From assembly GCF_988242995.1 (NCBI RefSeq), contig NZ_OZ547043.1: a stretch of 64,000 nt of DNA, one strand, 5' to 3'. A program made the translations under genes and the position numbers. The notes beneath the pieces were generated by a model. The model saw only the letters and a list, made by a program, of their open reading frames with translations, searched no databases and was not told where the DNA came from. Below are positions 32,286-35,200 of the stretch, one piece after another (the first letter of the stretch is position 1; every line of letters starts with the position of its first letter).

Positions 32286-35200
32286 TCAGAACGACCAGTT
32301 CACACCAGCTACCGCATTCCACGGGGATTCCACACCGGCACCATGGCTATACCCCACCCCGAGATGTCCGCTTAACGTACTGCTGAATGAGGCTTTAATA
32401 CCTGCCTGGTATATTCCACGTCTGCCCGACAAATCATTGACAAAATTACCGTCATTATTCACTTTCACCCGGTTATCATCGACAAATTCTTTGCGCACAG
32501 CCGCCTTCAGCCACGGCTCAATTTCCATACCGTTCCCCAGACGCATGTTGTAACTCAGCGTTGCGCCCAGTTCGCGATATATACTGCGAGTATCGACTGA
32601 TTTCGATTCCATGCCATTGGATAAATGATATTCGGGGTTATCAGCGGTGAACCCCGTTAACGATGCATACGGCGTCAGGTTCCAGTTACCATCGGTAAAT
32701 CGCATCCCGGTTTCAATGTGACCGCCCAGCCCGTTGCTGCGATAACTGCCGTTGGCGGCTCCACCGCTGCTCATTTTACCGGCTACGTTACTTTCAAAGC
32801 GGTTCAGCTTCACGATACCGTCCAGATAGAAACCACTTTCATGTTCCCAGCTGGCATAGCCCCCCAGAGAATAACTGCCCACACTGCCATGTCCTCCACG
32901 ATCAAAACCAATATGTGAATGGGAATAACCCATAAAAGCGCCCAGCGTCGCAATCCCCTCAGGAATATCATTACGGCTATCGATCCCCACCGTCATTCCG
33001 GTCAGCGTCTGCTCAAACCCGGCACCCGCATCGGTGGTGACATTATTACGGGTGTTATACGTCGTCCCCCAGACATTATTGTTGTGTGGACTCGCTTTCA
33101 TTATGTTCAACCGCTCGCGAATACTGTTTAGCTCAGCATCAAAGACCAACGGTAATGTTGCTGCCATATTGAGTACGGCTGCCGTAGAAGGCGTGATGCG
33201 TTTCTCCGGGACGGGTGTCGGCGTTGGATCGGGAGTCGGGTCTGGTTTCGGATCCGGTTTTGGGTCTGGTTTTGGATCCGGTTTCGGATTTGGGTTGGGG
33301 TCCGGGTTGGGTTTGACATCATTGGTCAGGTTCCAGTTGCTGTTGCCGTCGCTTTTCAGGACATACTCATAGGTCCCAAGATCAACGAAACCGCCGGTAT
33401 TACCCAGCGTAAACGAAGCATCCCCTCCCCCTGTTTTCACCAGCGTCATCGCGTCGTCAGACTGAGGGCTGACGCCGGTATCCTGAACAAAGATTTTAAA
33501 ATTGCCAGTGGCGTTGTTGTTGACGACCAGTTGATCGCCCCGGGAGCCTGCAACGTTGGTATGCAGGTAGAAATTACCGCTGCCGGAAAGTTTACTGGTG
33601 GTCAGCGTATTGTAGATACCGTTAGTTGTGGCAGGCGCTGCTGTTTGTGCTGATAAATAAACATCACCGTCGTTGAGGAGTAAACTGTTTACTCTATATT
33701 CGCAGTTGCTGGTGCCTGCACAGGAATTATTGCTGTTAAGCCAGACACTGCCCCGACTGGCAGCCGTCAGGTCGGCAAGCGTCGTATCGACGCCATTTCC
33801 GATAGTTAATGTCGCGCTATCGGTAATCCGGACCACCCCTTCAAGTTTAACTGGCGTAACATTATCCCGTGGCGTCATTAACGACAGGCTTCCTGTCGCG
33901 CCACTGACCGATGCATCCGCCAGCGCACCTGCGTAGACGATTGCCGTCCCACCAGAGACCTGTAGATCTTCTGCCCGGGCCAGAGCCTGAAACTCATCTT
34001 TTGACCGCCCAAGGGTATATTGCCCACCAGAGTTAACCTTTGTGGCGAAGTCCTGACCCAGGTTTTGCATTGCCCCACCGTTGCCAACCGTGGAATCGCG
34101 AGCTTCGGTACCTGCTAATACCAATAAATTACCGCCATTTTCCAGCAACGCATTGGTCGATAAATTGCCGGCAATGGAAAAGGTGCCGTACTGGTGAGTA
34201 CCGCTAATTTCAATACCGTTAGCCGTGCTCGTCTGGAGAGCGGCACCGCTGTTCTGGATGATATCTATCGCTTTGCCATTATCGTTGACTGTCAGCGTAC
34301 CGCCTTCATTAATCGTTGTTTTTACTGCCTCACCGTTAGCCGAAACTGTTTGTATTCCGCCGTCGTTAATCGTTGTCTCATTCGCCACACCCTCGACGAT
34401 TTGTTCACCGCCGGTAAGCATCGTGCCAGTCGCAGTGGCTTTTGTTTTGACGATCTCCCGTCCGCCCGTATTGACCTGTGTTTTGGCGGAAGTGGTGTCT
34501 GACTCCACGGTTAACACGCCGCCATTTGCCAGCAGGATATTGTTCGCCGCATCCTGTTCGATGCTGAACGCAATGCCATCAGCGCGTGTCCCTGTGACCC
34601 GCGTCGCCCTGGTGGTTGCCACCAACGCGCCCTGGCTACTCTGCTGTATCCCCGTAGCGCTGCCTTTCTCCCGCACATCGAGTGTGCCGCCATCATTAAG
34701 CACCGAGTTTTCAGCCAGACCGCCCTCATTAACTACCTGTGAACCGCCATTAATAATGGAACCTTCCGCTGTCCCGTTTGCCATAATTTGTTGTAAGCCA
34801 GAGACGATATCGGTATTGATCGCCTTACCATAATTCTGAACGGTTTGCGTGCCGCCATTGATGTGCGTTTTGTCTGTTGACCCACTATCAACAATTTGTT
34901 CACCACTTTCAATATTTGCATCAGTGGCTAAACCATATACCGTTTGCTTGCCACCTTTGATATTTGCTTTATCAGAAGTGGCACTGGCATATATTGTTTG
35001 GGTGCCCGCACTATTGAGTACAGTGCCAACATCTTTTCCATAAACATCCATTTTGCCGTTGGCATTAATAATCGTATCAACTGCCCGGGAACCAGTGACG
35101 ACTGTTAATGAGCCAGCGTTTTCCAGCACTACATTTTTAGCTTCTGAATTCCTGATGTAGAAAGCATCACCATAACTGTTGGTTCCTTCGATAAGGGTTC

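What the first reader, a model, noticed from the sequence alone, without database searches (positions are those of the whole stretch)
33225..33310. Tandem short repeats encoding the Pro-rich linker of autotransporter YpjA
The DNA here is made of near-identical 12-nt units encoding PNPDPNPNPKPDPKPDPKPDPKPDPTPDPTPTP. Such repeats are prone to slipped-strand length variation, which could vary linker length between strains.
Basis: seen in the sequence. Interest (0 to 1): 0.3.

Follow-up and report, generated by a model that had tools for sequence, protein, structure and literature searches.

The report
Variable proline-rich spacer of adhesin YpjA
This stretch encodes a stiff, proline-rich spacer between the sticky outer part and the membrane anchor of the E. 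coli surface protein YpjA; its short DNA repeats have been gained and lost among strains, an ordinary kind of variation for surface proteins.

Summary
On the minus strand, window 33314-33207 encodes KPNPDPNPNPKPDPKPDPKPDPKPDPTPDPTPTPVP, the only (X-Pro) run of four or more in any frame of the window. It lies in an intact 1525-codon ypjA/ehaD gene at the K-12 ypjA locus. The segment sits between the pertactin-like end of the passenger and the pore helix plus beta-barrel.

The DNA units are less alike than claimed. Only the four central 12-nt units match at 9-11 of 12 bases, the better period is 24 nt, and the longest exact repeat is 11 nt.

The slippage idea is supported, with corrections. At the true ypjA locus I read linkers of 28, 34 (this window), 36 (K-12), 38 (O157:H7), 40, 42 and 54 residues. 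Every difference is a clean gain or loss of a 6-, 12- or 24-nt unit. Most changes are in Asn-Pro or Asp-Pro units, not in the KPDP count. Three lengths cover about 98% of roughly 2,500 genomes, so low-copy alleles like this one are stable.

A paralogue beside minE, absent from the window, carries (NP)n with n from 3 to about 35 and is hypervariable.

This is a coding repeat-number polymorphism, not an on/off switch. The spacer function is inferred. Interest is low.

The parts
32286..36863 (-). ypjA/ehaD coding sequence (1525 codons plus stop; likely start MKFMNRTS...). The mechanical ORF extends to a GTG at 36983.
   Evidence: ORF list and translation. Pfam AIDA x9, Pertactin and Autotransporter. 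RefSeq naming of near-identical genes. Synteny with K-12 and ST2747.
33207..33314 (-). Proline-rich linker, (X-Pro)18: KPNPDPNPNPKPDPKPDPKPDPKPDPTPDPTPTPVP (residues 1184-1219).
   Evidence: Tandem Repeats Finder periods 12 and 24. Not aligned to any solved structure, lying between the passenger and translocator matches.
33237..33284 (-). Core array KPDP x4, equal to two 24-nt units (AAACCGGATCCR AAACCAGACCCR) that match at 22 of 24 bases.
   Evidence: Codon layout. Unit identity matrix. Two KPDP units (24 nt) are deleted in the K-12-type allele of strain 22AR0118.
33288..33299 (-). 12-nt unit CCCAACCCAAAT (P-N-P-N), single copy here. It is present x2 in typical O157:H7, x3 in O55:H7 CB9615 and O157:H7 TX 265-1, and x4 in O55:H7 USDA5905.
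   Evidence: Allelic series read codon by codon.
33213..33236 (-). TPDPTPTP tail of the linker. Its length was constant in every allele read at both loci; only D/E/A substitutions were seen.
33324..33692 (-). Pertactin-like C-terminal passenger (autochaperone) domain, residues 1058-1180, immediately N-terminal to the linker.
   Evidence: Pfam PF03212, E 7e-45. Aligns to pertactin 1DAB residues 430-534 and to the C-termini of Hap and IgA1 protease.
33075..33206 (-). Segment after the linker (EKRITPSTAAVLNMAATLPLVFDAELNSIRERLN...), the presumed alpha-helix that plugs the barrel pore.
   Evidence: Aligns to Vag8 from residue 568 and to the BrkA translocator 3QQ2 from its first residues. The role of this helix is described in PMC9289746.
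32355..33074 (-). Autotransporter beta-barrel domain, residues 1264-1503.
   Evidence: Pfam PF03797, E 6e-46. BrkA and Vag8 alignments.

Best explanation
The stretch is the coding sequence, on the minus strand, for a proline-rich spacer of the classical (type Va) autotransporter adhesin YpjA/EhaD. The spacer lies between the pertactin-like end of the beta-helical passenger and the helix that plugs the beta-barrel, so it emerges at the outer mouth of the barrel.

Shown: its DNA consists of degenerate head-to-tail 6-, 12- and 24-nt units, and E. coli alleles differ by clean in-frame gains and losses of those units.

Inferred mechanism of variation: replication slippage or unequal exchange between neighbouring units. 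The rate appears to rise with copy number. Low-copy alleles such as the one in this window are stable across hundreds of genomes. Long (NP)n arrays in a paralogue differ in almost every strain.

Inferred function: alternating X-Pro gives an extended, rather stiff and protease-resistant rod of roughly 10 nm for 34 residues. The rod holds the adhesin away from the membrane and the lipopolysaccharide layer. Unit gain or loss changes this reach without switching the gene on or off.
For: Gene, strand and architecture. Locus identity. Position between the passenger C-terminus and the translocator.

Repeat statistics.

Length alleles at the true locus are 28, 34, 36, 38, 40, 42 and 54 residues. Each difference is an exact tandem duplication or deletion:
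- CCCAACCCAAAT present x1, x2, x3 or x4.
- GACCCA duplicated.
- GACCCAAATCCA duplicated.
- CCAAAT duplicated (L059 against L024).
- A 24-nt deletion between 14-nt direct repeats.

The derived variants sit in otherwise identical K-12-type or O157/O55-type sequence.

Stability at low copy number: 651, 1282 and 267 records are at least 99% identical to the A, B and C alleles respectively. All typical O157:H7 genomes listed have the same span. Thirty-six of 53 metagenome contigs carry the identical K-12-type sequence.

Instability at high copy number: the paralogue beside minE has (NP)n with n = 3, 10, 20, 22, 23, 24, 26, 28, 32 and 35 (plus one array of 35 interrupted by a K-P unit), giving linkers of 18-80 residues.

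Other supporting cases. A more distant autotransporter encoded beside minE differs by an exact 12-residue (36-nt) unit duplication between E. coli and E. albertii. TibA has a proline-rich domain in the same position (PMC3835316).
Against: No experiment or structure here shows that the segment is extended or that its length matters.

Many ypjA alleles are RefSeq pseudogenes yet still show the same in-frame indels. The multiples of 6 therefore reflect the unit size, not necessarily selection on the protein.

The repeat units in this window's allele are interrupted by synonymous differences, and the longest exact repeat is 11 nt. This particular allele is a poor slippage substrate.

Length classes largely follow allele lineages. 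Most variation is therefore old and inherited, not ongoing.

Some length differences could have arisen by recombination with the 93%-identical paralogue rather than by slippage.
Confidence: 0.78

Rival explanations
1. Neutral low-complexity filler. The proline-rich segment only needs to be some flexible connection. Its length drifts by occasional slippage with no effect on fitness or function.
For: Length variants occur equally in alleles annotated as pseudogenes. Lengths from 18 to 80 residues are tolerated in the paralogue. Homologous autotransporters such as YejO-like proteins have no long (X-Pro) run at this position.
Against: The strict X-Pro alternation is kept through every indel and substitution read. 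The TPDPTPTP tail never changes in length. Proline-rich segments recur at this position in related autotransporters from E. albertii, Citrobacter, Salmonella, Klebsiella and Buttiauxella with different sequences. This suggests the composition is selected even if the exact length is not.
Confidence: 0.35
2. Antigenic variation. The surface-exposed repeat is an immunodominant epitope, and repeat changes are selected to escape antibody, as proposed for the (GGXXP)n and (PQP)n regions of Bordetella pertactin.
For: The topology matches pertactin, with a proline-rich repeat at the C-terminal end of a pertactin-like passenger domain. Pertactin polymorphism is confined mainly to such repeats (PMC3279416). 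The paralogue array is hypervariable.
Against: Three alleles dominate about 2,500 genomes, and the lengths follow lineage. Many alleles are pseudogenes. No serological data exist here. Adding more copies of the same dipeptide changes length, not epitope chemistry.
Confidence: 0.1
3. A phase-variation (contingency) switch. Slippage in the repeat turns ypjA on and off by frameshifting.
For: The tract is a tandem short repeat inside a surface-adhesin gene, which is the usual setting for contingency loci. Several ypjA alleles are annotated as frameshifted.
Against: Unit sizes are 6, 12 and 24 nt. All 17 or more linker lengths read at the two loci differ by multiples of 6 nt and stay in frame. In each frameshifted allele whose linker was read (L002, L005, L008, L077, L082, L083), the stretch read around the linker (351-763 nt) is in frame, so the frameshift lies elsewhere in the gene.
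Confidence: 0.02
4. The length differences are assembly or sequencing artefacts of a repetitive region.
For: One short allele was first seen on an 835-nt draft contig. One O145 genome shows a 364-nt span, suggesting a 1-nt error.
Against: The short allele is exact in eight independent complete O55:H7 genomes. Each major length is shared by hundreds of complete genomes and by independent metagenome contigs. CDS lengths of the paralogue differ by exactly the linker difference.
Confidence: 0.02

Closest known systems
Proline-rich domain of the E. coli autotransporter TibA (residues 627-677)
   Same: Both are proline-rich segments inserted between the junction/autochaperone region and the membrane-embedded C-terminal domain of an AIDA-type autotransporter adhesin (PMC3835316). 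YpjA is grouped with TibA, AIDA-I and Ag43 among the biofilm-forming adhesins (PMC9289746).
   Different: The gene and sequence differ. I did not compare TibA's repeat structure or its variation between strains. No length polymorphism is reported in the paper read.
Pertactin (Prn) repeat regions R1 (GGXXP)n and R2 (PQP)n of Bordetella pertussis
   Same: YpjA has a pertactin-like passenger C-terminus (PF03212; alignment to 1DAB). Both carry proline-containing tandem repeats whose copy number is the main polymorphism between strains (PMC3279416).
   Different: The motifs differ (X-Pro dipeptides against GGXXP and PQP). Pertactin variation has been linked to vaccine pressure, and nothing comparable is known for YpjA. 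The exact position of R2 relative to the YpjA linker was not aligned here.
YpjA-like paralogue between ymgJ and minE in some E. coli (RefSeq also names it YpjA/EhaD)
   Same: It is 93% identical in DNA over the last 2.5 kb. It has the same KPDP/TPDPTPTP linker tail, the same domains and the same upstream 120-nt small CDS.
   Different: It is about 1,100 residues instead of 1,525 and lies at a different locus. Its linker is an almost pure (NP)n array with n from 3 to about 35. It is not present in the window.
Rigid X-Pro spacers such as TonB (Glu-Pro)n-(Lys-Pro)n and the Asp/Glu-Pro repeats of trypanosome procyclin
   Same: All alternate a charged or polar residue with proline. Pfam's procyclin model gives a sub-threshold compositional match (30.8 bits against a cut-off of 100). 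That these segments form extended rods is from my own knowledge of those proteins.
   Different: There is no homology and the cellular location differs. The match is below Pfam's threshold, so this is a resemblance in how it may work, not membership.
Generic E. coli MLVA typing loci (CVN001-CVN017, CCR001)
   Same: Several are 6-bp repeats that vary between E. coli strains (PMC8143711).
   Different: None of the 20 published primers matches the window or any ypjA or paralogue locus fetched, allowing up to 2 mismatches. This repeat is not one of those loci.

Membership tests
Classical (type Va) autotransporter | C-terminal 12-stranded beta-barrel translocator (PF03797) preceded by a pore-spanning helix | tested here: met
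   PF03797 at residues 1264-1503, E 6e-46. Alignment to the BrkA translocator 3QQ2 and to Vag8.
Classical (type Va) autotransporter | Repetitive beta-helical passenger with a C-terminal autochaperone/pertactin-like domain | tested here: met
   AIDA PF16168, nine stretches, E 2e-135. Pertactin PF03212 at residues 1058-1180. Alignment to the passenger C-termini of pertactin, Hap and IgA1 protease.
Classical (type Va) autotransporter | N-terminal Sec signal peptide | not tested
   The sequence MKFMNRTSPHYCRRSVLSLLISALIYAPPVMA looks like one. No predictor was run.
YpjA/EhaD orthologue (E. coli K-12 b2647 locus) | Same chromosomal neighbourhood as K-12 ypjA | tested here: met
   Window order: alpha-amylase-like ORF, tRNA with anticodon CAT (39941-40016), 464-aa ypjCB ORF, ypjA. 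This matches the ST2747 and K-12 annotations.
YpjA/EhaD orthologue (E. coli K-12 b2647 locus) | High identity to genes named ypjA | tested here: met
   95.0% identity to K-12 and up to 99.9% to other strains over 751 nt. All hits are annotated ypjA.
Coding variable-number tandem repeat (slippage-prone repeat) | Head-to-tail repeated units | tested here: met
   Tandem Repeats Finder periods 12 and 24. Lag-12 self-identity 0.70 against a background of 0.28. The units are degenerate.
Coding variable-number tandem repeat (slippage-prone repeat) | Copy number differs between strains in otherwise identical sequence, with breakpoints at unit boundaries | tested here: met
   CCCAACCCAAAT x1 to x4. Duplications of GACCCA and GACCCAAATCCA. 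A 24-nt deletion.
Coding variable-number tandem repeat (slippage-prone repeat) | Length change observable within a clone or culture (ongoing instability) | tested here: inconclusive
   All typical O157:H7 genomes listed have the same length, and one O157:H7 strain (TX 265-1) has one extra unit. Its phylogenetic position is unknown. No population sequencing was possible.
Phase-variable contingency locus | Repeat unit not a multiple of 3 (or located in a promoter), so that slippage switches expression | tested here: not met
   Units are 6, 12 and 24 nt. Every allele read stays in frame.
Generic E. coli MLVA loci (GECM-10) | Flanked by the published primer pairs | tested here: not met
   No primer match, allowing up to 2 mismatches, in the window or in 83 fetched loci. 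Primers are from PMC8143711.
Extended polyproline-II-type rigid spacer | Adopts an extended, stiff conformation | not testable with these tools
   Only the sequence pattern (X-Pro)18 was seen. No structure was predicted, and a prediction would be low-confidence for such a segment.

The most novel reading that the evidence does not exclude
Linker length may be a tuned 'reach' setting. Unit gain and loss in the X-Pro array, and above all in the (NP)3-35 array of the minE-locus paralogue, could be selected so that the adhesin tip clears the strain's O-antigen or capsule layer. Repeat number would then co-vary with surface polysaccharide length. The array would act as a quantitative in-frame contingency element rather than an on/off switch.
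Probability: 0.1. Interest if true: 0.5.

Novelty: new member of a known kind. Interest (0 to 1): 0.22.

Why it matters
It matters little for general biology. Proline-rich spacers in autotransporters, and repeat-number polymorphism in surface proteins, are both well known.

There are three practical points:
- The ypjA linker is a real, if low-diversity, length marker. Three common lengths track allele lineages, and rare derived variants occur.
- RefSeq gives the name YpjA/EhaD to two different loci. Comparisons of 'ypjA alleles' can therefore mix orthologues with a paralogue whose (NP)n array is hypervariable.
- That paralogue array could serve as a high-resolution typing marker. It would also be a natural series for testing whether spacer length affects adhesin function.

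Tried and rejected
Literature. Searches for ypjA with 'proline-rich', VNTR, MLVA or 'tandem repeat' found no paper describing this linker or its variation. Absence from this library is not proof.

MLVA lead. I suspected the repeat might be the MLVA locus CVN016, which is absent in many strains and has high copy numbers. I rejected this because none of the GECM-10 primers matches. O157-specific MLVA loci were not checked.

Protein search. The search by word index returned mostly YejO-like paralogues and partial proteins, not the full-length YpjA clusters. It still gave the lead to the short O55:H7-type allele (P0010).

Mistaken allele assignment. I first took the 18-80-residue linkers for ypjA alleles. 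Gene context showed they belong to a paralogue between ymgJ and minE, so I kept them apart from the true-locus series.

Opposite strand. The plus-strand ORF at 33034-33372 (112 aa) is the glycine-rich antisense reading of the proline codons, inside a gene with domains on both sides. I rejected it as a gene.

Identity-band counts. These cannot separate a 6-nt indel from a few SNPs, so class frequencies are estimates from evenly spaced rows plus the bands at 99% identity or higher.

Paper access. The held text of PMC2631898 lacked the passage on pertactin repeats, so I used PMC3279416 instead.

Not run. No structure prediction was run, because an X-Pro repeat would give a low-confidence extended coil and would not test the function.
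Full report
**1. What is in the sequence**

The finding lies inside a long minus-strand ORF, window 32286-36983. 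From the likely start MKFMNRTS at 36863 it encodes 1525 residues.

With the flanking residues, the run KPNPDPNPNPKPDPKPDPKPDPKPDPTPDPTPTPVP occupies 33314-33207, which is residues 1184-1219.

Tandem Repeats Finder reports two overlapping arrays:
- Period 12, 4.5 copies, 80% matches.
- Period 24, 3.8 copies, 75% matches.

Self-identity of the stretch is 0.70 at lag 12. The window-wide mean is 0.277 (sd 0.053) and the maximum elsewhere is 0.51. No other (X-Pro) run of four or more exists in any frame of the 64 kb.

'Near-identical 12-nt units' is generous:
- The four KPDP units match at 9-11 of 12 bases.
- They pair better as two 24-nt units, at 22 of 24.
- The outer units match at only 6-9 of 12.
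- The longest exact repeat is 11 nt.

The peptide is more regular than the DNA because synonymous codons alternate (CCG, CCA, CCC; GAT, GAC).

**2. What gene and what part of it**

Pfam finds nine AIDA repeats, a Pertactin domain (residues 1058-1180) and the Autotransporter beta-barrel (residues 1264-1503).

A 751-nt segment around the linker matches 2,556 of 5,426 complete E. coli genomes at 95-99.9% identity. The matches are annotated 'adhesin-like autotransporter YpjA/EhaD'.

The window has the K-12 gene order:
- An alpha-amylase-like gene.
- A tRNA with anticodon CAT. ARAGORN calls it Met, and RefSeq calls it tRNA-Ile, that is ileY.
- ypjCB, then a recombinase remnant.
- ypjA.

Solved structures bracket the segment. 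The passenger C-termini of pertactin, Hap and IgA1 protease align to query residues 28-132. Vag8 and the BrkA translocator align from residues 168 and 194 onward. The proline-rich run is residues 135-170 of that query, and no solved structure aligns to residues 133-167.

Published reviews describe the helix after it as spanning the barrel pore (PMC9289746). TibA has a proline-rich domain in the same position (PMC3835316).

**3. Does the length vary between strains?**

Yes. In evenly spaced samples of the matching genomes, the span of a fixed query falls into three classes. Read codon by codon, they are:

| Class | Example | Linker length | Difference from the window allele |
|---|---|---|---|
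| A | this window | 34 residues | none |
| B | K-12 | 36 residues | an extra N-P between the third and fourth KPDP |
| C | O157:H7, O145 | 38 residues | exact tandem duplication of the 12-nt unit CCCAACCCAAAT |

Records at least 99% identical to the A, B and C probes number 651, 1282 and 267 of 2,525. Most of the rest are SNP variants of the same lengths.

An independent scan of metagenome contigs with a gapped pattern gave 53 contigs with the same three lengths, split 9, 39 and 5. These included one further event, a CCAAAT duplication.

Rarer true-locus alleles are all derived from a common allele by one clean unit change:

| Strain(s) | Linker length | Change |
|---|---|---|
| 22AR0118 (strain TUM9757 has the same span) | 28 residues | K-12 type minus 24 nt, two KPDP units lost between 14-nt direct repeats |
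| Res13-Lact-PEB20-37-A | 38 residues | K-12 type plus GACCCA |
| NRZ104446 | 40 residues | K-12 type plus GACCCAAATCCA |
| Seven O55:H7-type genomes (six named O55:H7, such as CB9615, plus 2013C-4465) and O157:H7 TX 265-1 | 42 residues | CCCAACCCAAAT x3 |
| O55:H7 USDA5905 | 54 residues | CCCAACCCAAAT x4 plus two extra CCGAAGCCAAAT units |

That makes at least nine independent events, every one a multiple of 6 nt at a unit boundary.

Two corrections apply:
- The KPDP count was four in most alleles read. Three KPDP occur in K-12-type alleles and two in the 24-nt deletion allele. Most events are in the N-P and D-P units beside or within the array.
- Low-copy alleles are stable. All typical O157:H7 genomes listed share 38 residues, and 36 metagenome contigs carry an identical K-12-type sequence.

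**4. A paralogue that must not be confused with ypjA**

A lead from the protein search was P0010, an allele with a linker 16 residues shorter. It led to genes that RefSeq also names ypjA but that lie between ymgJ and minE.

These genes are about 1,100 residues long and 93% identical in DNA to the last 2.5 kb of the window's ypjA.

Their linker is an almost pure (NP)n array followed by the same (KPDP)TPDPTPTP tail. The values of n read were:
- 3 in eight O55:H7-type genomes.
- 10, 20, 22, 23, 24, 26, 28, 32 and 35 in other strains, plus one array of 35 interrupted by a single K-P unit.
- The resulting linkers span 18 to 80 residues.

The annotated CDS lengths differ by exactly the linker difference. 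Within the closely related O55:H7/O157 group alone, n is 3, 20, 22 or 26.

A more distant autotransporter encoded beside minE differs by an exact 12-residue unit duplication between E. coli and E. albertii.

This paralogue is not in the window. It shows what this kind of linker does once the array is long: it becomes hypervariable.

**5. How it most likely works**

Shown: the position of the segment, its repeat structure, and the in-frame unit-wise polymorphism.

Inferred: the indels arise by replication slippage or unequal exchange between adjacent units, at a rate that grows with the number and purity of units. The codon pattern of the true-locus unit (AAT CCC AAC CCA) differs from that of the paralogue (AAT CCG AAC CCA). 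The O55/O157 series therefore does not need gene conversion from the paralogue, although recombination cannot be excluded for other alleles.

Inferred from general knowledge of X-Pro repeats such as TonB and procyclin: the segment is extended, stiff and protease-resistant, at roughly 3 Å per residue. That gives about 10 nm here and about 5-25 nm across the range seen. It would act as a stalk lifting the passenger off the barrel. Pfam's procyclin model gives only a sub-threshold compositional match.

Whether length matters for function is untested. Many alleles are pseudogenes, which fits neutrality at least as well.

**6. Rivals**

- An on/off phase switch is excluded, because all changes keep the frame.
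- An assembly artefact is excluded, because identical alleles recur in many independent complete genomes.
- Antigenic variation of the pertactin type (PMC3279416) is possible but unsupported.
- Neutral drift of a low-complexity connector remains a serious alternative for the functional part of the explanation.

**7. Comparison with what is known, and novelty**

The architecture matches TibA's proline-rich domain, and the polymorphism matches the pertactin repeat regions. The gene itself is a known, named E. coli autotransporter.

I found no paper describing the linker polymorphism. The repeat is not one of the generic E. coli MLVA loci.

This is a new, modest example of a well-known kind of feature. 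Interest is low. The most useful by-products are the two-locus naming problem and the hypervariable (NP)n array of the paralogue.

Noticed in passing
Not in the window; loci L074 (6851-10243), L078, L079, L080, L081, L065-L070, L072, L073: Some E. coli carry a YpjA-like paralogue of about 1,100 aa between ymgJ and minE, which RefSeq also names ypjA. Its linker is an (NP)n array with n from 3 to about 35, different in nearly every strain read. It is a candidate hypervariable coding repeat and a source of confusion when comparing 'ypjA alleles'.
   Followed up: partly
Protein P0009: A YpjA-like protein from an E. coli record lacks about 200 residues, including the whole pertactin/autochaperone domain. 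The deletion junction falls inside the N-P part of the linker (…LQVAGGT|PNPNPNPNPDPTPEPTPTPVPEKR).
   Followed up: no
window 32286-36863 (-) compared with L002, L005, L008, L077, L082, L083: ypjA is annotated as a frameshifted pseudogene in O157:H7, O55:H7, ST2747 and GF50, whereas the window's copy is an uninterrupted 1525-codon ORF. The gene seems to be decaying in several lineages.
   Followed up: no
window about 26750-31616 (for example the 777-aa ORF at 29283-31616, +): Directly downstream of ypjA the window carries a P4-like satellite module: primase-helicase, DUF5375, and Icd-like, ash-like and HTH genes. K-12 has the CP4-57 genes ypjF and yfjZ at this position. Strain ST2747 has two tandem copies of this module.
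   Followed up: partly
window about 36928-37047 (-); L075 6396-6515; L074 6667-6786: RefSeq annotates a conserved 120-nt 'hypothetical protein' CDS about 64 nt upstream of both ypjA and the minE-locus paralogue. The duplication therefore included this upstream element. Its role (leader peptide, or regulatory) is unknown.
   Followed up: no
window 39941-40016 (-): ARAGORN calls this tRNA, which has anticodon CAT, tRNA-Met. RefSeq annotates the same gene as tRNA-Ile (ileY type, read as Ile after lysidine modification). It is a known pitfall, and useful here as a locus landmark.
   Followed up: yes
window 33034-33372 (+): A 112-aa plus-strand ORF overlaps the linker. It is the glycine-rich antisense reading of the proline codons and is almost certainly not a gene.
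   Followed up: yes
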